Positions 6,301 through 64,000 of a stretch of 64,000 nt of DNA are shown in pieces. Origin of the DNA: Octopus sinensis (taxonomy: Eukaryota); contig NC_043016.1 of assembly GCF_006345805.1 (NCBI RefSeq), forward strand, positions 12,586,001 to 12,650,000, given 5' to 3'. Both the position numbers and the translations under genes were made by a program. Numbering within the stretch: the first letter of the stretch is position 1; each line of letters begins with the position of its first letter. The notes under the pieces were generated by a model, which saw nothing but the letters and a program-made list of their open reading frames with translations, did not search any database and was not told the origin of the DNA.

Positions 6301-6401
6301 TATATACACACACACATGTGTGTGTGTGCATATATATCCTTGGGGGGGGGGGATATAAATCCGGGGAAGCGTACTCTTAAGAAATACAGCAGTCTATATT
6401 T

Positions 6402-6485
6402 ATTACTGGTGAAGGCCAGTTTATAGGGTTACCCTTTATGGCGAGAAAACCAAGGTAACCCTATAAATCGGTTTTCATCAGTAAT
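6402..6485. repeat. Hairpin with 32 bp arms
   Basis: ATTACTGGTGAAGGCCAGTTTATAGGGTTACC versus the reverse-complemented arm ATTACTGATGAAAACCGATTTATAGGGTTACC (27/32). Confidence 0.85.
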
Positions 6486-6839
6486 ATATATATATAGTTC
6501 CATTCTTCCGGTTAGCATAACCATATATATATATATATATATACATATATACATAGATATATATATATATGATGTATACATATATGGTGTATATATATAT
6601 ATATGGTGTATATAATATACATATGGTGATGCAAACCGGTAAAATAGAACTCAAAACACGAGTGTATATTTTTATTAATATTTAGCAGAAGCAACTCAAG
6701 GGTCGAGAGTTCTGTGCGTTATCAAAGGCGATCCGTCTGAAGGCCCTCAGACGAGACGTCTTTGCAGATAAGCAACTTGTGGGTGCGAAACCGGTGGTCA
6801 CTGACCGATCATAACAAAAAACCTTATTATATGTGTATA

Positions 6840-28900: not shown

Positions 28901-29069
28901 TGATGTTGCAGGATAAACATTTTGAAGGTGGACTTGATTGAATCTTGTGTCTATTGAGTCCTTATAATCCCAGTCATTCATATTATGTATGTATATGGCA
29001 GGAAATGTAATGTCTACACACACATGCACATATACAGTGTATGATTATGTATGTTTATGAAAAAGATTG

Positions 29070-29311
29070 AAAATTAGATACATTTGAATATCTTTATATA
29101 AATACATTAAAAGAAAAACGTTTTTGTTTTACATGTTTCTGTTGTTGAAAAACCTTATCAAAAATATATACTAAAATGGAATTTGTTTTTTTCTCTACAT
29201 ATTCCATTTTAGTATATATTTTTGATAAGGTTTCAACAACAGAAATTTGTAAAACAAAAACGTTTTTCTTTTAATGTATTTATATAAAGAAATACAAATG
29301 TACCTAATTTT
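29070..29311. repeat. Foldback inverted repeat, about 110 bp arms, 18 nt loop
   Basis: 29070-29182 is the reverse complement of 29201-29311 with few differences. Outer pairing TTTATGAAAAAGA/TCTTTTTCATAAA. Confidence 0.92.
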
Positions 29312-29384
29312 AAAAAAGTAGCATTTTCATTCTTTTTCATAAATATTTATTTGTGTGTTACCTCTACATTAAAAAAAAAAAAGA

Positions 29385-35239: not shown

Positions 35240-35510
35240 CAAGCACCATCTGATTGTGGCCGTTTGCCAGCCTCGCCTGGCCCCCGTGCTGGTGGCACGT
35301 AAAAAGCACCATCCGCTCGTGGCCGTTGCCAGCCTCCGGTGGCACTTCAAAGCACTCACGGAGTGGTTGGCGTTAGGAAGGGCATCCAGCCGTAGAAACA
35401 TTGCCAGATCAGACTGGGCCTGGTGCAGCCTTCTGGCTTCCCAGACCCTAGTTGAACCGTCCAACCCATGCTAGCATGGAAAGCAGACGTTAAACGATGA
35501 TGATGATGAT
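35240..35510 (+). mobile_element. Young RTE-tail repeat
   Basis: Same tail sequence, ending in (GAT)n. Confidence 0.9.
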
Positions 35511-36127
35511 GAATTGTAATTAAGGAAATGTATTTCAACAGAAAGGGTCGAACAATAAATGGACAATGAATCTGGATTTGCTTTAAGTTTAGTTTGTTTT
35601 CCATGCTGGTTACAGAAGCAGTGAAATAAATAACTAAATAAATATATAGTTCAAATTGTACAAAAACCAGAAGACAGTAACAGATGATGAGGGGACAACA
35701 GAACAAGGTATATTAGTTTGATGCTCAGGAAAACTGGAAGAGTCTTTGACATTTTGAGCCCGTACTCTTCTTCATAAAGGAATGAAGTGTGAAAACAGAA
35801 GGAGAGAGGAAAGAAAACGGAGAAATAAAGATGTGTCTGAACACATATGCACACACATACACATAAAAGATTTTATCATTTCTTGTAATCTAACTCCATA
35901 AACGTGACTGACAAACATGGGTTCGTTCTTATATGTCAAGATAAATGTTTAGTGGTTAAAAACTAATACTCTTCTTGAACGCATTGCACAAGTGTCAGGA
36001 TATGATGAATAGATATTGTGTGTGGTGGGTTTCTTTATAGCTTGGAAAATGTTTTGATTACTACCTGTTGAATTGGATACTGATTTTAAATCCATTACAT
36101 ATGTATATATGTATGTACGTATATATA

Positions 36128-36397
36128 TATCATCATCATTTAGCGTCCACTTTCCATGCTAGCATGGGTTGGACGGTTCAACTGGGGTCTGTGAAGCCGG
36201 AAGGCCGCATCAGGCCCAGTCTGATCTGGCAGTGTTTCTACGGCTAGATGCCCTTCCTAACGCCAACCACTCCGTGAGTGTAGTGGGTGCTTTTCATGTG
36301 CCACCGGCACAGGTGCCAGGCGAGGCTGGCAACGGACACAAACGGATGGTGCTTTTACGTGCCACCGGCATGGGGGCCAGGCGAGGCTGGCAACGGA
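36128..36397 (-). mobile_element. Young RTE-tail repeat, inverted relative to 35240-35510
   Basis: (CAT)n then TTTAGCGTCC...CATGCTAGCATGGGTTGGACGG. Confidence 0.9.
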
Positions 36398-41445: not shown

Positions 41446-41913
41446 ATATATATATAAATAAATGTTTTTAATTATAATGATAATAATTATTATTATTATT
41501 ATTATTGTTATTATTAAGCCAAAATAATGCAAATTATAAAAGTATAGGTTGGTGATTTTACCTGGTATTTCAATATTTCAAGGTTAGCACTTATTCTTCA
41601 GGAAATCTTTGGAGTAAAGGTGTTGTTAGCTGACTTCTCTCATCATTTTCATAACTTGCATTGTTTTGGTTTAAACAGAAAATGTTTTAAAATAGTAAAA
41701 TGTAACATTTTTATTAGTAGAGATTATTAATTGCATTATTAACCAAATTGTCTTTTGTTAAGATTTACCTTCTGTTTCTACATTAATATTTTCTTATAAT
41801 TTTTATAAGTAAAACCCCAAAGTCATTATTTTCTTATTTGAATGTATGTTTTTCTATTTCATCAAATCCAGCTTTAATATAAAATTTTTTTTTTTTTTTT
41901 GCTTTCTCCACAG

Positions 41914-42024
41914 AGAAGTGCCCAGTATCTTCATAAAGAACTGCCCGTTCGAATTGCTCACAGAATTGGCGGCTTCAGAGGACTGCCATTTATTGTTGGC
42001 TGCAATCCAACAATTTTGCAAGTG
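41914..42024 (+). CDS. BCKDK: BCKDK coding exon 3
   Basis: CACAG acceptor, [43 protein letters not shown] donor. Carries the BCKDK signature [22 protein letters not shown]; 111 nt. Confidence 0.97.
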
Positions 42025-42088
42025 GTAAGTTTTTTTCTTTTTTTTTCTTTTCCAATGGGACACTCCAATCTGCTCTTTCCTCCCTCTA

Positions 42089-42119
<31 letters not shown>

Positions 42120-42121
<2 letters not shown>

Positions 42122-42970
42122 GGCTAGCTGGCAGAATCGTCAGCAGTATTTTGTCTGTTGTTACATTCTAAGTTCGAGTTCCGCCAAGGTTGTCTTTTAT
42201 CTTTTCAGAGTTGATGAATTAAGTACCAGTTGAGCACTGGGGTTGATGTAATCAATTAGTCTCCTCTCCCTAAAATTTCAGGCCTTGTACCTATATTAGA
42301 GAGGATTATTAATATTAAGGTGACGAGCTGGCAGAATTGTTAGCACACTGTGCAAAGTACTTAGTGGCGTTGTTTTACGTTCTGTGTTCAAATTCTGCTG
42401 AGGTCAATTTTTGCTTTCATCCTTTCGTGGTTGATGAAATAAGTACCAGTTGAGCATTTGGGTCGATGTAATCGACTAGTCCCCTTCCCCAAATTTCAGG
42501 CCTTGTGCCTTTAGCAGATAGGACTATTATTATTATTATCGTTAAGGGGGTGAGCTGGTGGAATAGTTGCATGCTGGGTAAAATACTTAATGGTATTCTG
42601 TCTGTTTTATGTTCTGAGTTCAAATGCCGCCGAGATTGATTTTTGCCTTTCATCCTTCTGGGGTTGATAAAATAAGTACCAGTTGAGCACTGGGGTTGAT
42701 TTAATTGACTTACCTTGTCTCCCAAAATTGCTGGCCTTGAGTCAAAACTTGAAGCCAAAAAGCTGGCAGAATTGTTAACACACTGGGCAAAATGCTTAGC
42801 GGTATTTTGCCCATCTTTACATTCTGAGTTCAAATTCTGCCGAGATTGACTTTGCCTTTCATTCTTCTGGGGTTGATAAATTAAATACCAGTCAAGTACT
42901 GGGGTTGATGTGATTGACTAGTCCCCTCTCCATAAATTTCAGACCTTGTGCCTAATGTAGAAAGGATTTT
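42120..42970 (+). mobile_element. Head-to-tail array of about four family A SINE copies
   Basis: GCTGG(C/T)(A/G)GAAT...TTCAAAT...CATCCTT...TACCAGT...GGCCTTG recurs at about 42127, 42327, 42553 and 42762, mostly separated by (TTA)n. Confidence 0.85.
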
Positions 42971-43851
42971 TATTATTATCATTATTATTATTATGATCAT
43001 CATCATGTATCTTTTCTAGAGAGGTACAATGGATGCAAGGTGCTGAATTCTTGACTGCATGGTCATGAGCTCAAACAATTATAGAAACCATTGTATTGAT
43101 TTGCGCAAAACTTTCGTTTTCTTCAGTCACTCTGTTGAGTAGGCTATTTGAAAAACAATTGCTCCAATAAACACTTTTTCACCCATGAAGCCAAAAAGTG
43201 AATGAGATAAAAGAAGTCTTTAGCTTATAGCTTTTTCAAAGTTTTGGATTGAGAAGGAAAAGTTGTAAAGTATGGATATATGTGACACAGTCTTTGAATG
43301 CAACGTGTACATTTTTTGGCTGTGTGATTAAGATTAGTAACTGTGTTTCTCAATATATGGCACTTTAGGTAAGTGTTCTCTACTCTAATTTTGGGTAATC
43401 ACTTGTTTGTAGGATTTGGTGCATACAAGCCCTTAATTTGTGTGTCTTTTATTTGTTTCAGTCATTTGACTGCAGCCATGTTGGGGCACCACTCCTCTGA
43501 AGCGTTTTAGTCAAACAAATTGACCCCTATACTTATTTTTCTTTTTAAGCCGGGTATTTATTGTTGGTACCTTCTGTGGAACGCCTAAGTTACAGAGACA
43601 TAAACAAACCAAGACTGGTTGCCAAATTATGGTGGAAGGACAAAGGAACACGCACACGACTATGAGGTTCTGTGATTGATGCTGCATTATACCTTGGACA
43701 AGTGTATTCTACGAAAGCTTTAGGATTGACTGGCAGATTATTTTGTGTGTGTATACATATCATCATCATTTAACATCTGTTGTCAATAAATGATGATGAT
43801 GATATATACACACACATTTATATTCAAATATGAATGGGAAGCAGCCCAAGG

Positions 43852-44126
43852 GATATAAACAATATTGAACACACATACACAAGGCATGTGTTTTGCCAGT
43901 TACCAGTTTGTGGGCAGGCTGTGATTATAGGCATAGGAGAATTTATTCTCCCTAATTCTGCTGGTGTTAAGTCACCTAGAAGTAATAGAGGGGACTTGAT
44001 ACAAGTCATCTTGCTTTTCTATGACTTCCAGGTGTTTTAACACCAGGTGAATTGAAGATAATATATTCTCTTATGCTTAACTGCCAAAACATGTGCCTTG
44101 TGTATGTGTGTTTGATATTGTTTATA
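43852..44126. repeat. Diverged foldback inverted repeat
   Basis: ATAAACAATATTGAACACACATACACAAGGCATGTGTTTTGCCAGTTA pairs with about 44079-44125. The inner arms also pair around ACTTGATACAAGT. Confidence 0.85.
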
Positions 44127-45109
44127 CATACATGCATACACATACAAAACAGGCTTCAACATAGTTTCCGTCACAAGGCATCAGCTGACCCAGGTCTCTC
44201 GTGGAAGACACTTGTTCAAGGTGTTGCATAGTGGGACTGAACCTGAAACGATGCGGTTGCAAGGAAAGCTTCTTAGTAAACTAAGAAACCAACTACTTTA
44301 TAAACAAAGTCCTTTGATGTATCATCTGCATTGAGTTAACTTGCTCTTATCACTGTTGTGGTCATAAATACAGTAAAGGCATCCAGCCGTAAAAATCCTG
44401 CCAAAACAAACACAGAAGTCTGGTACAGTCTTCTCCCTGGCCAGCTCCTTTCAAGCTGTTCAACCCATGCCTGCATGGATGTTAAACGATGATGATGATG
44501 ATGACAATAAGCTAATGACTAAATACCCTGCTCCTTCCTGGAAACCTGTAACCAAATATGCTGTTGTCTATAAACTATGATATTAAATAAATACCCCATG
44601 TTGGCACTTTGTAGGAAGCACTTGTGCCAGTGCCACATAAGGAAATTTTTATCAGTGCTACATAAGGAAATTTCTATCAGTGCCACATGAGAAGAGCCTG
44701 TGCCATGCCATACTGATGTCATGTAAAAGCACACCCTGGAAAGTGGTTGGCATAAGGAAGGGTATCTCTCCACCACCACTTGACAACCAGTGTTGGTTTG
44801 TTTATGCCTCCCATGAATTAGTGCTTCAGCAAAAAGAGACTGAGGCAGGCTTTAAAAAAATAACTACTGTGTCAGTTTGTCCTACTAAACCCTTAAAGAC
44901 CGGTGTAGCCCCAGCATGGCCACAGTCCAATAACTGTAATTAGTAAGCATCTGCCCCTTTTTGGGGGAGCGGGGTATATCTAAAATCTTTTATGAATCAC
45001 GTCATGAAAAAAAAAGTCACAGAAAGCAAAAAATATTCACTATATTTGCTTCTTTTTCTTTTCTCTAATATTTTATCATTAAATGATTACTTTTGTTTTC
45101 CTCTTTTAG

Positions 45110-45157
45110 CATGAAATGTACATTCGGGCATTCAACATATTAACTGAATTTCCAAGT
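45110..45157 (+). CDS. BCKDK: BCKDK coding exon 4
   Basis: TTTTAG acceptor, HEMYIRAFNILTEFPS, GTAAGT donor. Matches HELYIRAFQKLTDFPP; 48 nt. Confidence 0.95.
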
Positions 45158-45550
45158 GTAAGTCATTTTATTTAAATTTATCTGGTAATAACTTTTATTC
45201 TAGGTAACATCATATAAAAATCTATCAAAACCATACTTCACACTGAACCACTCTATCAAAAGCATTAAATGCCAAATAAACAAAACTCATCAATTATTGA
45301 TGGTACAGTTATATGTTCCCTAACATTATATTAGTAAAATTGTTGTGATAATTTTAGAGGTTAATTATTGCTGACTGACTTTTGCACTTTTGTATCATTG
45401 CACTATAAGCATTCAATTCACTGTAATTTCATTACTTTCTGTAAATTCTGGATGAATAAATGTTGCAGAAATTTTAATTTCTTTTACCTTCTGGCATTCA
45501 GATTATTCTGTCAAATGCAATGCTTATTTATTCACATTGTTTTGAATTAA

Positions 45551-45711
45551 CCCATTTCAACCCAGGTTTTTCAATTTTGCAATTTATTGAAATTTTGAAG
45601 ATAGTTATATAAATAGGGATAACAAACATACGGAAGCGTCCAGTTAACCTTTATTGCAGTAAACAAACCAAATACAACTGTCCTCAAACAAGGATAGTGG
45701 GTTAAAATGGG
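45551..45711. mobile_element. piggyBac-type MITE
   Basis: TTAA|CCCATTTCAACCCA ... TGGGTTAAAATGGG|TTAA: 13/14 TIR with TTAA TSD. Confidence 0.8.
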
Positions 45712-45877
45712 TTAATTATGCATTATCTCATAGTTGCAAGATTGCGATGATGTGAAATTTTACTTTTAGAATGACATTGTAGGGTAAATGTGAAAGGCCA
45801 GATCTGGCCAATTTGAGCATAAAAGAGGTTGACTATTTGAGCCAGATATGGCTGGTTTGAATGCTAAAGGGTTAGGA

Positions 45878-46109
45878 CAGTGGTTCTGAACCAGGGTCCA
45901 CATGGCCCCTGGGTGGGGGTCAAACAAAATAGTAATTTGGAGATCAACTGTATTTCTCTAACGTTTAACATAGTTCAACATGTTTCTTGCTAATGTGTGA
46001 AAAACTAAATAGGAATTTTGAAAGAAATATCTTTAAGACTAGCTTTTAAACATTGAATAGCTATGGGGGTCTGGAGGACAATGGATAAAACAATGGTTGA
46101 GGACCACTA
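45878..46109. mobile_element. hAT (Charlie-like) MITE
   Basis: CAGTGGTTCTGAACCA ... TGGTTGAGGACCACTA TIRs; 8 bp flanks GGTTAGGA/GGTTTGGG (6/8) as a decayed TSD. Confidence 0.72.
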
Positions 46110-46224
46110 GGTTTGGGAAATGCTACACAGTAAAGACTCATTTACAAAGAGGACACACACACACATTATAAATGATAATTTGATTTTTTTTTTTGAAGTG
46201 TACTTTTCTTTTTATTATTTACAG

Positions 46225-46344
46225 ATTCATAACTTTGAGGATGAGCAAAAATATAGTCAAACGTTGAAAAGTCTTTTGGATGATCATAAAGATGTAGTCT
46301 CTTTATTGGCTGAAGGTCTTGGAGAATCTCGCAAACATATCAAA
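46225..46344 (+). CDS. BCKDK: BCKDK coding exon 5
   Basis: TACAG acceptor, [46 protein letters not shown] donor. Matches [23 protein letters not shown]; 120 nt. Confidence 0.96.
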
Positions 46345-46675
46345 GTAATTTGAATTAATTTTTAAAAGTTCAACATAAATGACATTAAACTTTATAAGCA
46401 CCAATTTCAGCTAAGAACTGAGCAACTGATCAGGTCCAAACCTGAATCTTATATATATACATATATATATATATATATAATATATATATATTTGCCCTGA
46501 TTGATCACTGGCCACTAAATCTTTTTTATTTTCTCTCTGCTTATTTCTGTGTTCCTTTCTGTGTAGTGTAGGCTCGAAACGTAAAAGACTTTCTCACTTT
46601 CCGAGCGTTAAACTAATACATCTGTTTGTTGTTTTACACACGTCTTTGTCTTATGTTTTGTATTGTGTAAATCCC

Positions 46676-46744
<69 letters not shown>

Positions 46745-47034
46745 TCCTTCTTGACATTATAACCTGTTACTTTATGCTTTCGAAGGATCTGTGAAATAGA
46801 AAATCCTTTACTTAGATAACAAGTAATGATTGGCAATTGGAAGAGCAACTAGCCATAAAGTTCTATTGCTAATAAGTCCCAGTCCAGCTTATGCTAGCTT
46901 GGAAAAATGGGTGTCAAATGAACAAATAAGCTTAAGATATACTTGCAGATGCTCAGAAATACATACATGCAGCGCTTTTATTGATATATTATTTTCTTCT
47001 TTGTAATTTTGAATATTTTATTTTTTATTTTTAG

Positions 47035-47133
47035 GATGACAACTTGATAAAAATCTTTCTTGATCGTACTTTAACTTCAAGACTGGGTATTCGAATGTTA
47101 GCAGAGCATCACTTGGCAATGCACGAAGAAAAG
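47035..47133 (+). CDS. BCKDK: BCKDK coding exon 6
   Basis: TTTTAG acceptor, [39 protein letters not shown] donor. Carries the [17 protein letters not shown] motif; 99 nt. Confidence 0.97.
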
Positions 47134-49411
47134 GTATGTTTCTTTAAATGACAATTGGATAAAAACTATTTCTTTCCTCTTGAAAATATCTTTCAATTTT
47201 TTTTTTCCACTCTTTACTATTTTAGTTTAAATGGATCCTCACTACTAAGAATGTTAATGGGACTGTTAGAAAGAAATTTAGAATCTTAGAATTATGTTAG
47301 CTTTTGGATATCTAAGTGAAAATATATTTAATTCTTGGATTGTATAGCTTCATTAAGCCATCATTGCCTTTTTTTTATTTTTTCGTCTTTAGAGTAAGTC
47401 TAAGTTATTTTTCTGTGATATTTCTATGCATTATCTTTATTCTTTCTCAGTACTGAGGTATTATTTGCACAATATTTCAAAGCTCACATGTTATTCTAGT
47501 TGAACAAAAATAAATATATACATATATTAGTTGACTTATTTTAATGTTGATATATTGGCTAATTAAGGGGAAGAGGGATATTTGGGTTTTTGTATGGAAA
47601 TGAGAGAAACACAAATTGGAGTTTTGTCATCATTTGCAAATCATCATAAGAAGATAAGTGTTTGCTGTTCTGTTTCGCAAAATAGTCAAGTGAGTGACTG
47701 TTAGATATTGGGTTTCATTTATTTTGTAATGTGTGATTTATATGAGTTATTAGGGTTTTGGAGTTGAGTAAATGAGTATTAAAGTATACAGTCAGTTTAT
47801 CAAATATATTTAGGTTTTATAGGTGGTGGTAGAAGGAATGAGGTTTGGATGTTGTGCTATTATAGTATCTACAATGAATACCTTTGTAGAGAGACTGGTT
47901 TTGGTGTAGTATAGATGTATGTGTGTGTGTGTATTATAGCGATGTGATAAATATAAGGTGCAAAGTTATGTAATGAAATGCAAGTTTTTCTGCTCAACTT
48001 TTAATGAAAAAATATTAAAACTATTCTAAGACTTTAGTTACCAAATGTGAAATGTGTTTTTGGAATATCCAGGGTAAATTATTTTTATTAAACCTAACCA
48101 TGAATTTATGTCTGTAGAGCAGCATTTACACTGTATTAAGCACAGAATAATTGATAATCATCTTTGATATTATCCAAAGAATAGCTTCTTTTACATTTCT
48201 GGGAAGTTTTCGTTCTACATGCAAAAAGAACAAAGCATTTTTTTAAACATTACAATACTTTAATAAGGTTTGATGACTTGTTTACTTGTCATATCCTACC
48301 ACTTACTTATTTGAATAATTTTAGACTGTTTTCTTCCAATAGTAGTTGGGTCAAAGTGGAGCTCTCGTAATGAAATTCTTATACAGATTGAGTTTATCTT
48401 TGATTGGTTCTATATGCTTCTAGTTGAATTAGAATAACTTGTTTTCACCAAGCTTAGAAACTCTTGTAGCATTGCTGGCCAAATCAAACACTTGTATGTT
48501 TCTTTCTAATTGAAATACTTGTTTTACTTTTTAAATTGCAGACAATGTAATATTACTCAAGCAAATGGCATTATGCAAATTAGCTCGTCTCATTACTAGC
48601 TAGTCTTAGCAGTCTTTAATCTTATTTTCTGATATTTAAATAATTTAACTTTGGCTCATCATCATCATAGTCATTTAACGTCCGCTTTCCATGCTAGCAT
48701 GGGTCAGATGGTTTGACTGAGGGCTGGCAAGCTGGGAGGCTGCACCAGGTTCCAATCTGATCTGGTAAGGTTTCTACAGCTGGATGCCCTTCCTAACGCC
48801 AACCACTCCAAGATTGGGTGCTTTTTATGTGCCTCTGGCACAGTAGCTCGTCAAGTGACACTGACATTGGCTATGCTCAAATAGTGCTTTTGCATGCCAC
48901 CAGCTCAGTTTATATTTTCGAGTTATTGCAGATATTTTGTTATTCTGATTTATTCCAATATTCTAAAATTTGAATGAATGAATGAAATTGTCTATTAGAC
49001 TGTAGATTATTTCAAAAGTTGTTGACTATAATTTTTTTTTAAAGTTATATTTATTTTCCTGATAAAATTTCAGTTACTGAAAATGACTTCACTTTTACTC
49101 TCAGCGTTGGATCCTAGTTAACACCAGTTTATCCAAATCGTTGGTAACTTTTAATAAAAATTTTTTTTTTTTCACTGTGATAAGGTTCGTAGTAATTCTC
49201 CTGACACCCCCTTCTTTTGTATCTTTATAAATAGGAATTAGTGAAATTGGAAGCTGTGTTTAATCGTTTTTCAGACCTTGAAACTTTTGTGATACAATTT
49301 TCTGCGTTTATTTTAAACAAAAACCATTATTCATTGTATTGTAAACTCATATCTCTTCTACCGTGCCTTTTTTTTTTTCCCCCAAGGCCTATTTCTGATG
49401 GCATAGTTTGT

Positions 49412-61525: not shown

Positions 61526-61912
61526 TATCTCTACAAAGTTTCTATAGAAAGTTTGTAGAGATAATACACACACACACTGAAAGTTACGTTTCATATCTGA
61601 ATACATCTATGTAAACAATGTAATCAGAGATAGAAAAATAGTTGATGAGTGTATATGCATATTTCAGGAATTCTTGTTCTTTCTTCAGTACCACATCCAA
61701 CCCATTAACCATCCACAAACACTGCTAGTGTGTTCATGGATGGTGAATGAGTTGGACATGGTGTTGAAGAGAGTGTAATGATTCCTGAAATATGCATATA
61801 AACCCATGAACTATTTTTCTACCTTTATTTGCATTGTTTACATAGACATATTCAGATATAAAATGTAACTTTCAATGCATGCTCTGGTTTCTACAGAGAA
61901 CCTGTAGAGATA
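61526..61912. repeat. Diverged foldback inverted repeat, about 140+ bp arms
   Basis: GAAAGTTAC...ATATGCATATTTCAGGAAT...ACCATCCA pairs with TGGATGGT...ATTCCTGAAATATGCATAT...GTAACTTTC. Ends TTATCTCTACA/TGTAGAGATAA. Confidence 0.88.
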
Positions 61913-62352: not shown

Positions 62353-62392
62353 GATAATGATACATACACACACACCTATATATATATTTATA

Positions 62393-62643
62393 CAGGTGTT
62401 GCCAAAAGTTTGCAAAATAAAAAAAATTTTAATTATGCCCATGTACAATTCAATTCAAATATATAGAACATAGAGATATTCTTACCCAATAACTGATCGC
62501 ATGGTTCAATATCCTTTAATTGAACCATTGGATCAGTTATTAGGTAATCATACCTGTGTTGTGTATATTTGAATCAAATTGTACTTGGGCATAACAATTT
62601 GAATTTTTTTTTTTTTAATGTTCCAAGCTTTTAGCCACAACTG
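62393..62643. mobile_element. Tc1-like foldback MITE
   Basis: TA|CAGGTGTTGCCAAAAGTTTG ... CAAGCTTTTAGCCACAACTG. The arms pair imperfectly almost to the centre (TGGTTCAAT/ATTGAACCA). Confidence 0.78.
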
Positions 62644-63134
62644 TTCGTATAAAAATATTTTATATGATTATCCAGTATTTTTTTTTTTTTTTGGTTGAAT
62701 AAATTTTCAAGACCACTTGTTTACTATCTTCTTGGGGTCCATCAAACCAGGTGAACAATGGCCATGCTGGAAAGTTGCCATCCACTTTTATCTGTACTAA
62801 ACATGAAAAGTACACATGAAAATATTTTAATTACTATTGATGTATTTTATAACTTTTTTAAAATCTTATTCAGCAATTGCATATTGATCATCTGAAAGAT
62901 ATTGATCATTGTGTCTCCCATTTAACTGACGCTTAAGCGAAAATGTGCATAAGATTTGTCGAGCAGCTGGTTGGAGTAAATATATTTTATTAAAAACAAG
63001 AAAATAAAATCAATTGTAATAAGTTTAGGTAGCAGCTCTTCATAACATGCATTTGCTGATATTTCAGAAATCAACTGAAATTGGTTTTGCATGAGCATGC
63101 ATTTCTAAACCTTTTGTCCTTTTGTACAAGTGTG

Positions 63135-63202
<68 letters not shown>

Positions 63203-63203
63203 C

Positions 63204-63490
63204 GAAAGAAGGTTTGAAAATGCAATTTAAAAGATGTTTATTTACTTTACCGGTTTCACTCTTTGGAAAAAGATTGTCAAAAGTAACATGTAGAAGTTTG
63301 GTTGCGTTAATTATTGGTTGTTGCAAATTGCTACATTACATATATACAGTCTTTGGTGACAGGGACATGGCAACAACCAATGATTAACGCAACCAAACTT
63401 CTATATGTTACTTTTGACAATCTTTTTCCAAAGAGTGAAACCGGTAAAGTAAATAAGCATCTTTTAAATTGCATTTTCAAACCTTCTTTC
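63204..63490. repeat. Near-perfect foldback, 121 bp arms, 45 nt spacer
   Basis: 63204-63324 versus 63370-63490 shows 3 mismatches by eye. Pairing resumes beyond a (TA)n expansion (about 63125-63145 with 63491-63510). Confidence 0.95.
63408..63452 (+). ncRNA. Minimal type I hammerhead-ribozyme-like motif (Penelope type); mirror copy at 63242-63286 (-)
   Basis: Stem I TTACTT/AAGTAA; core TTGACAA; stem II TCTTT-TTCC-AAAGA plus GT; GAAA; palindromic A-CCGG-T; putative cleavage triplet GTA. Activity unknown. Confidence 0.5.
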
Positions 63491-63533
63491 ATATATAATT
63501 CCACTTGTGCAGTACCCCACAACTCCACTTTGT

Positions 63534-63568
<35 letters not shown>

Positions 63569-64000
63569 TATATATATATTGATGTGTGTACAACGATGAA
63601 TTTCTGATAAGGTTTTCAGTTTTTCCCAAGCTGTGTTTGGTGTTTGTAGTAGTTATAACTTATTAGTAATTTAACTGTTTGGATTGAGTTCTTTGACACT
63701 ACTTTCTGTGAAGACCATTTAATTAGCACGCTGGTGGTTTGAAAAAAAAAATACTATATGATTAATGAAATTTAACAACTGTGCATTATGTTCATAAAGA
63801 AATATAAGGTTTATATATTTATTTATCATAATATCAAAATATTATGAGACATTTTGGTGCCAAGTAGAGAATGAACAGGCATTTAAACTGCCTATATCCA
63901 ACCAAAATATTCTGTCTGTTCTATGTTCAAAGTGACCAGTTGTAGCCTCTCATACCTACCCTACAATCTAATTCTAAATATATACAATCACATCATTAAA

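What the first reader, a model, noticed from the sequence alone, without database searches (positions are those of the whole stretch)
63204..63490. Young foldback element whose two arms each carry a minimal hammerhead ribozyme motif with a U3-A8 core
Seen: 121 bp arms with only 3 mismatches, all of which are G-U pairs on the BCKDK sense strand, so the pre-mRNA can form an unbroken duplex. Each arm contains TTACTT-TTGACAA-TCTTT(TTCC)AAAGA-GT-GAAA-CCGG-TA-AAGTAA. Established: Penelope-like elements carry minimal type I hammerheads with a palindromic loop 3 (here ACCGGT) that work as dimers, often have inverted terminal repeat copies, and C3-G8 is a tertiary pair that tolerates U3-A8. Inference: this is a non-autonomous PLE or retrozyme-like element in which the antisense arm would mask the ribozyme inside the host intron. 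The 2 nt insert before GAAA is non-canonical.
Basis: partly seen in the sequence, partly recalled or inferred. Interest (0 to 1): 0.75.

Follow-up and report, generated by a model that had tools for sequence, protein, structure and literature searches.

The report
Penelope stump with fossil ribozyme cuts
This intronic hairpin is two shortened tail ends of a high-copy Penelope-type jumping gene joined head to head, a known layout; its hammerhead-shaped motif is conserved across related families, and copies of a sister family fused to U6 RNA exactly at the predicted cut suggest such ribozymes likely do cut in cells and that both arms are likely copied from one RNA.

Summary
The arms are real, but this is not a foldback or retrozyme family. 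It is a 5'-truncated insertion of a young Penelope-like retrotransposon (RT, Neptune-type zinc finger, GIY-YIG): a 3' end plus an inverted copy, with a 36-nt tail on one arm, in a (TA)n tract in a BCKDK intron. That layout is published. The hammerhead is a true homologue: seven families (55-65% protein identity) keep it at the same site, stem I covaries (36 of 42 pairs, 1 of 5040 permutations), and positions 3-8 are U-A or A-U. Stem II more likely opens with a U·U mismatch than with a 2-nt insert. Activity is untested. Fossil hints: U6 snRNA is joined exactly at the predicted cut in 4 loci of a sister family, in two on both arms; in this family one donor end sits at the cut and 5' ends pile up there (12 of 20, p about 0.01; not repeated in the sister family, 12 of 44). 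29 of 32 pairs have one long and one short end. The scan noted such pairs in this genome, and U6 at ribozyme cuts in other genomes, before.

The parts
63138..63202 (.). (TA)n microsatellite, left part of the target site; no target-site duplication can be read in it
   Evidence: sequence
63197..63369 (-). Left arm: inverted 5'-truncated copy of the element's 3' end, ending at the proximal TATATA ('short' end)
63242..63286 (-). Hammerhead motif of the left arm; antisense in the BCKDK pre-mRNA
63325..63369 (-). The apparent loop: element sequence carried only by the left arm; the head-to-head junction is 63369/63370
   Evidence: same sequence precedes the arm in longer copies
63370..63541 (+). 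Right arm: 5'-truncated copy of the element's 3' end, ending at the distal TATATATA ('long' end)
63408..63452 (+). Minimal type I hammerhead motif: stem I 63408-63413/63447-63452, core U3-A9 63414-63420, stem II 63421-63436 (U·U mismatch, then 5 pairs, 4-nt loop), GAAA 63437-63440, palindrome 63440-63445, H17 63446; predicted cut 63446/63447
63492..63497 (+). Proximal TA motif, inferred first reverse-transcription start site
   Evidence: short ends of the family stop here
63498..63533 (+). 36-nt one-sided tail; holds the 5' strand of a hairpin that closes only in tandem copies, just before the ORF1 start
63534..63579 (.). Distal TA motif (inferred second start site) merging with the right part of the (TA)n target
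41878..47148 (+). Upstream BCKDK exons (four exon-bearing frames); the next exon found lies near 71.6 kb, outside the window

Best explanation
The hairpin is two 5'-truncated 3' ends of a coding Penelope-like retrotransposon joined head to head in a (TA)n tract, likely made when the element's enzyme cut both target strands and copied one RNA twice from two start sites 36 nt apart. Shown: the arm is the terminal repeat of a family with RT, zinc-finger linker and GIY-YIG domains; copies end at two TA motifs; pairs nearly always have one end of each kind; the hammerhead motif is conserved with covariation. Inferred: priming by pairing of the nicked (TA)n with the two TA motifs around a conserved hairpin; one template for both arms; occasional self-cleavage after 63446-equivalent positions, leaving a 5'-OH end that a ligase such as RtcB can join to U6 or other RNAs. 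This copy is a dead stump; in the BCKDK pre-mRNA its one sense ribozyme would be locked in the duplex, as a by-product.
For: Family: 1230 first-look candidates; 729 exact matches running through the cut and 431 of an older subfamily. 38 of 38 endonuclease loci have the arm downstream on the same strand; L081 and L106 are repeat-ORF-repeat tandems; ORF with RVT_1 and GIY-YIG. Ends: 29 of 32 head-to-head pairs long plus short, 3 long plus long, 0 short plus short, p 1.3e-6. Hammerhead: seven families, stem I 36 of 42 Watson-Crick pairs, 1 of 5040 permutations; 3-8 is U-A in six and A-U in one; palindrome kept in three versions; H17 is A, U or C. The three common polymorphisms among 126 arms fall at outer stem I, loop II and H17. 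Cutting: U6 ending in five T joined at the exact cut of family B in L308, L392, L393, L394; the same 11-nt donor end at the cut in family B (L310) and in this family (L242), the only two distinct loci of 409 that hold it. One template: both arms carry the same foreign 5' junction in L392, L394 (U6), L311 and L246/L247, one arm short and one long. Literature: PMC4209133, 10.1101/2021.04.23.441226, PMC11167929, PMC6789731.
Against: No cleavage or RNA-end data. No U6 fusion was seen for the window's own family (0 of 32 hits; 0 of 409 loci; only the first 100 of 318 U6-end matches were listed). The pile-up of 5' ends at the cut rests on hand classification (12 of 20 events; 12 of 21 if one partner arm is counted) and was not repeated in family B (12 of 44, p 0.43). 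Far more arms run through the cut (729) than stop at it (about 12), so cutting is at most occasional among templates. Family D has GCAA for GAAA in all 7 motif copies and still spread. This family's stem II is weak and lacks the canonical G10.1-C11.1 pair. L392-L394 could descend from one fusion event. The window's arms differ at 3 of 121 positions. Three long-plus-long pairs do not fit a strict rule.
Confidence: 0.8

Rival explanations
1. Same retrotransposon and same insertion, but the ribozyme of the window's family is a decayed relic that no longer cuts; only sister families with canonical stem II do.
For: U·U mismatch and C-G in place of G10.1-C11.1; monomer fold no better than shuffles; no U6 fusion seen in this family; 729 arms read through the site; cleavage is dispensable for Poseidon insertion in vitro (PMC11167929); family D spread with a changed core.
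Against: Core, stem I and palindrome are kept across three subfamilies while H17 varies among A, U and C; L242 and L246/L247 join foreign sequence at the cut; excess of 5' ends at the cut, p about 0.01; U3-A8 and U10.1-U11.1 are each known from natural ribozymes (PMC3088659).
Confidence: 0.35
2. The two arms come from two separate RNA molecules, or the second arm is copied from the first arm's new DNA, and the fusions arise by template jumping of the reverse transcriptase at a cut RNA end rather than by RNA ligation.
For: In L246/L247 the sequence next to the cut looks like an mRNA in antisense orientation, which ligation of RNAs would not give (the protein was not identified). Arms differ at a few positions.
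Against: Two independent RNAs would rarely both be U6 fusions (L392, L394) and would not give 29 of 32 mixed pairs. U6 ends in five T, the mature cyclic-phosphate end that RtcB joins to 5'-OH ends (PMC6789731). Either route still needs an RNA that ends at the cut.
Confidence: 0.3
3. A non-autonomous foldback, MITE or retrozyme family with terminal inverted repeats, or a hairpin selected to silence the ribozyme or regulate BCKDK.
For: Near-perfect 121-bp arms between TA runs; all mismatches G-U on the host sense strand.
Against: No fixed element length (gap between arms 200 to 6725 bp); arms lead into RT and endonuclease coding sequence; ends are asymmetric; no tandem monomer arrays of this unit were seen; the G-U pattern is 1 in 8 by chance.
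Confidence: 0.04

Closest known systems
Endonuclease-bearing Penelope-like elements, Neptune/Nematis type, with inverted 5'-truncated copy and one-sided 30-40 bp tail (Craig et al., 10.1101/2021.04.23.441226, passages read)
   Same: RT plus C-terminal GIY-YIG, CX4CxxC linker, partial tandems forming pseudo-LTRs, inverted truncated copy, tail on one end, microsatellite target
   Different: Here the tail is bounded by two TA motifs and the one-long-one-short rule is counted; the N-terminal ORF overlaps the RT ORF in another frame
Minimal type I hammerheads of PLE terminal repeats, including the U3-A8 variant of Schistosoma Cercyon (Cervera and de la Pena 2014, PMC4209133, parts 1-2 of 4 read)
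   Same: Minimal core, palindromic 15.2-16.2 region, place in the terminal repeat, U3-A8, opposite-strand pairs 100-700 bp apart
   Different: Stem II opens with U·U and C-G rather than an unpaired base and G10.1-C11.1; a sister family has A3-U8; that paper gives no in vivo evidence of cutting
Poseidon of the green anole, in vitro (Frangieh et al. 2024, PMC11167929, parts 1-2 of 4 read)
   Same: Both target strands cut and extended; two adjacent internal start sites define the tail; start sites in a stem-loop; ribozyme dispensable
   Different: There the start sites have no homology to the target and lie inside the ORF; here they coincide with TA runs just upstream of ORF1. There no RNA ends were found at the cut; here genomic fusions mark it
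U6/LINE-1 chimeras made by RtcB ligation (Moldovan et al. 2019, PMC6789731, passages read)
   Same: U6 3' end with its U tract joined to a retroelement RNA and then retrotransposed
   Different: The acceptor 5'-OH here would come from the element's own ribozyme, at one fixed base; seen in sister family B, not in the window itself
Animal non-LTR retrozymes (PMC7229834, passages; 10.64898/2026.07.22.740005, part 1 of 5)
   Same: Type I hammerhead, link to PLE terminal repeats
   Different: Retrozymes are non-coding head-to-tail tandem units; this is a truncated end of a coding element in inverted arrangement

Membership tests
Penelope-like element, endonuclease-bearing | RT and C-terminal GIY-YIG endonuclease in one ORF | tested here: met
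   776-aa ORF in L085: RVT_1 E 7.8e-8, GIY-YIG E 9.6e-6; linked to the arm in 38 of 38 loci
Penelope-like element, endonuclease-bearing | Partial tandems forming pseudo-LTRs around the ORF | tested here: met
   L081 and L106
Penelope-like element, endonuclease-bearing | Inverted 5'-truncated copy and one-sided 30-40 bp tail | tested here: met
   window; 29 of 32 pairs
Neptune clade | CX2-5CxxC linker before the endonuclease, CCHH in it, DKG motif (shared with Nematis) | tested here: met
   read from the translation
Neptune clade | RT groups with reference Neptune rather than Nematis sequences | not tested
   no reference sequences were fetched; 'Neptune-type' rests on motifs only
Minimal type I hammerhead | Core 3-9, GAAA, U16.1, H17 not G, paired 3-8 | tested here: met
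   H17 is G in 2 of 126 arms
Minimal type I hammerhead | Covarying stem I and palindromic helix III region | tested here: met
   36 of 42 pairs, 1 of 5040 permutations; 7 of 7 palindromes
Minimal type I hammerhead | G10.1-C11.1 at the base of stem II | tested here: not met
   U·U then C-G in this family; met in families B, C, D, G; U·U is a reported natural exception (PMC3088659)
Minimal type I hammerhead | Self-cleavage after H17 | not testable with these tools
   only indirect genomic junctions
Non-LTR retrozyme | Non-coding head-to-tail tandem units each with a hammerhead | tested here: not met
   coding parent and inverted layout
MITE or foldback DNA transposon | Fixed termini with symmetric inverted repeats and uniform length | tested here: not met
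   variable truncation, asymmetric ends

The most novel reading that the evidence does not exclude
In this clade one RNA molecule serves as template for both arms of an inverted insertion, read from two fixed TA start sites around a conserved hairpin, and its non-canonical U3-A8 hammerhead cuts in vivo, as recorded by U6 and other RNAs ligated exactly at the cut and then copied onto both arms. This would explain the inverted repeat and the one-sided tail of Penelope-like elements in one step.
Probability: 0.5. Interest if true: 0.72.

Novelty: new member of a known kind. Interest (0 to 1): 0.48.

Why it matters
The hairpin itself is an ordinary dead insertion. The family around it bears on two open points named in the papers read: whether the weak minimal hammerheads of Penelope-like elements cut in cells (no RNA ends at the cut were found for Poseidon), and how the inverted copy with a one-sided tail is made. 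Fusions at the exact cut, present on both arms of a pair, give a DNA record for both and a direct design for an assay. They also suggest that U3-A8 cores are working natural variants.

Tried and rejected
Rfam: no hammerhead match in the window region. Folding the motif alone: not better than shuffles. MAFFT alignment of the motifs did not respect the stems, so pairs were counted from parsed motifs. Excess of 5' ends at the cut: seen among ORF1-bearing copies (6 between -2 and +5) and in family A, not in family B; control windows were dominated by indel variants and gave only rough background rates by eye (about 13-15 and about 20 breaks per 10 nt; one search was not classified). Sequencing runs: no RNA holder listed; all laid runs were contigs, which cannot show ends and broke at the TA tracts, so neither expression nor an empty site could be judged. 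The GC-rich donor of L310 was not identified: no metagenome match, no Rfam match. A two-template origin for the window's arms was considered from shared alleles and left open: the 63382 allele recurs in another subfamily. Selection for G-U pairs rejected as a 1-in-8 event. No RT tree and no paired-arm variant count were made, because the script machine was lost.

Full report
Observation. The arms, the three mismatches and the motif are as described. The + strand folds into one duplex of -207 kcal/mol. BCKDK is on the + strand, with exons at about 41.9-47.1 kb and one near 71.6 kb whose peptide matches solved BCKDK structures at E 2e-13. All three mismatches are G-U on that strand, which three transitions give 1 time in 8. 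The genome is 2.72 Gb; earlier scan notes call it an octopus, a label I did not test.

What the element is. The right arm has 1230 first-look candidates, 40 scored. Longer copies continue through the supposed loop sequence, a low-complexity 3' region and coding sequence. I fetched 38 loci around the 40 best endonuclease hits (725 candidates); all 38 have the arm downstream on the same strand, and by my reading 23-24 also have an inverted arm on the 5' side. L085 holds a 776-aa ORF with RT, a CX4CxxC linker and GIY-YIG. L081 and L106 are repeat-ORF-repeat tandems in which the arm continues through the tail into the ORF1 start. So the window holds two truncated 3' ends joined at their 5' breaks. 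Craig et al. describe this layout, with a 30-40 bp tail on one end (passages), and Cervera and de la Pena note opposite-strand hammerhead pairs 100-700 bp apart.

Two fixed ends. Of 132 distinct arms in loci L001-L146, 69 end after the tail, 50 at the proximal TA motif, 10 continue in tandem and 3 were unclassified. Of 35 head-to-head pairs, 3 involve a tandem arm and were dropped; of the other 32, 28 are long plus short, 1 is long plus an arm that is short by eye, 3 are long plus long and none short plus short (p 1.3e-6 against a coin toss; a few pairs may be one insertion assembled twice). Both ends coincide with TA runs in the element. Between them and the ORF1 start a hairpin closes in 7 of 8 families (z -2.07 for this family). 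Frangieh et al. showed for Poseidon that both target strands are cut and extended and that two adjacent internal start sites define the tail. I infer the same here, with priming helped by TA pairing.

Is the hammerhead real? A search with the ORF1 N-terminus gave sister families at 40-48% identity; their RT regions are 55-65% identical. Six of them carry a hammerhead-shaped motif 120-210 nt upstream of the ORF1 start. With one representative each for seven families, stem I has 36 of 42 Watson-Crick pairs and only the true assignment of 5040 permutations reaches that; positions 3-8 are U-A six times and A-U once; the palindrome is ACCGGT, ACTAGT or ACATGT; H17 is A, U or C. Families D and F have only 4 of 6 stem I pairs, and D has GCAA for GAAA. 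An eighth family (L231/L312) was truncated and showed no motif. Among 126 arms of the window's family the common polymorphisms in the motif are at outer stem I, loop II and H17, with rarer ones at N7 and 10.1. U3-A8 and U10.1-U11.1 are both reported natural variants (passages), and U3-A8 is reported in Schistosoma PLEs. The genome also holds canonical-core motifs: 403 matches against 59 for the reversed control.

Does it cut? Not shown. 729 arms matching one exact pattern run through the cut. Of 32 arms that leave the consensus near it, I classed by eye 10 as indel variants, 2 as second arms, 12 as starting at the cut (0 to -2) and 8 at +3 to +6; p about 0.01 against a simulated uniform null. 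The same test in family B gave 12 of 44, p 0.43, so this signal alone is weak. The junction partners say more. In L308 a full U6 (106.9 bits) ending in five T is joined to the first base after the family B cut. Among the first 100 of 318 U6-end matches (part of three contigs), three more loci show the same junction and none that I recognised joins elsewhere in that repeat; most others are a U6 gene cluster or precede SINE-like sequence. L308 belongs to a different subfamily from L392-L394, so at least two events are likely. A 355-nt GC-rich donor sits at the cut in L310 (family B), and its last 11 nt sit at the cut in L242 (the window's family); no other distinct locus of 409 has them. Mature U6 ends in five U with a cyclic phosphate that RtcB joins to 5'-OH ends (passages), the end a hammerhead leaves. 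No U6 fusion was seen in the window's own family.

One template. In L392 and L394 both arms are U6 fusions, one with the short and one with the long end. L311 and L246/L247 also repeat one foreign junction on both arms, and L289/L290 one internal deletion. Rare templates appearing twice in one insertion, with the mixed-end rule, point to one molecule copied from both start sites. Copying of the second arm from new DNA, or template jumping, is not excluded; the antisense mRNA-like piece in L246 favours jumping in that case.

In the host intron. Only the right arm is a sense ribozyme in the BCKDK pre-mRNA, and its complement is transcribed first, so it would be paired (-207 against -5 kcal/mol). 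Nothing suggests selection for this.

Novelty. Layout, motif type and U3-A8 are in print. A search for Penelope, U6 snRNA, chimer and ribozyme together gave 0 papers; one for hammerhead ribozyme, retrotransposon, RtcB, circular RNA and Penelope gave 3, of which I read passages of one, on retrozyme circularisation; octopus, Penelope and hammerhead gave 5, none on this by the 4 listings shown. The library lacks most subscription papers and I saw no supplements. The scan had noted head-to-head Penelope ends and swapped 3-8 cores in this genome and U6 at ribozyme cuts in other genomes; I found the fusions here before reading the latter. Verdict: new member of a known kind; interest 0.48, carried by the fusion evidence rather than the hairpin.

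Noticed in passing
window 29067-29314: A second head-to-head pair in the window whose left arm carries a U3-A8 hammerhead-like motif with an ACATGT palindrome, probably another family of the same clade
   Followed up: partly
window 61575-61877: Older foldback, 148-nt arms, 82% complementary, next to a TA tract
   Followed up: no
window 6395-6492 and 6714-6830: Small foldback and a nearby CGAAACCGGT motif, possibly another decayed hammerhead
   Followed up: no
window 35264-36393, 43854-44126, 62382-62658: Further inverted repeats of 64-83% identity
   Followed up: no
L106 2920-2930, L085 2850-2860: ORF1 and the RT-endonuclease ORF overlap at a TTTTTTA run, a slippery-site pattern (recalled) that would allow a -1 frameshift; sister-family translations fit the same overlap
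   Followed up: no
L179, L181, L184, L200: Family D has GCAA in place of GAAA in all 7 motif copies found, yet has near-intact young copies
   Followed up: partly
L143, L315, L326: Family G carries an A3-U8 core with perfect stem I
   Followed up: partly
L362-L391 and list: A tandem U6 gene cluster on contig C1, and many dispersed U6 3' ends directly followed by two kinds of SINE-like sequence
   Followed up: no
L246 1530-2047: About 490 nt of mRNA-like sequence lies between two arms that both start at the cut, antisense to the element; no Pfam family passed
   Followed up: partly
L310 1531-1885: GC-rich 355-nt donor joined at the cut; perhaps ribosomal spacer or expansion sequence, unidentified
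   Followed up: partly
L029 1100-1215: A piece resembling 5S rRNA (recalled, not tested) in antisense at the 5' break of a copy
   Followed up: no
L085, L106 and others: Older subfamilies have 160-250 extra bases just upstream of the hammerhead, made of internal sub-repeats, that the window's subfamily lacks
   Followed up: no
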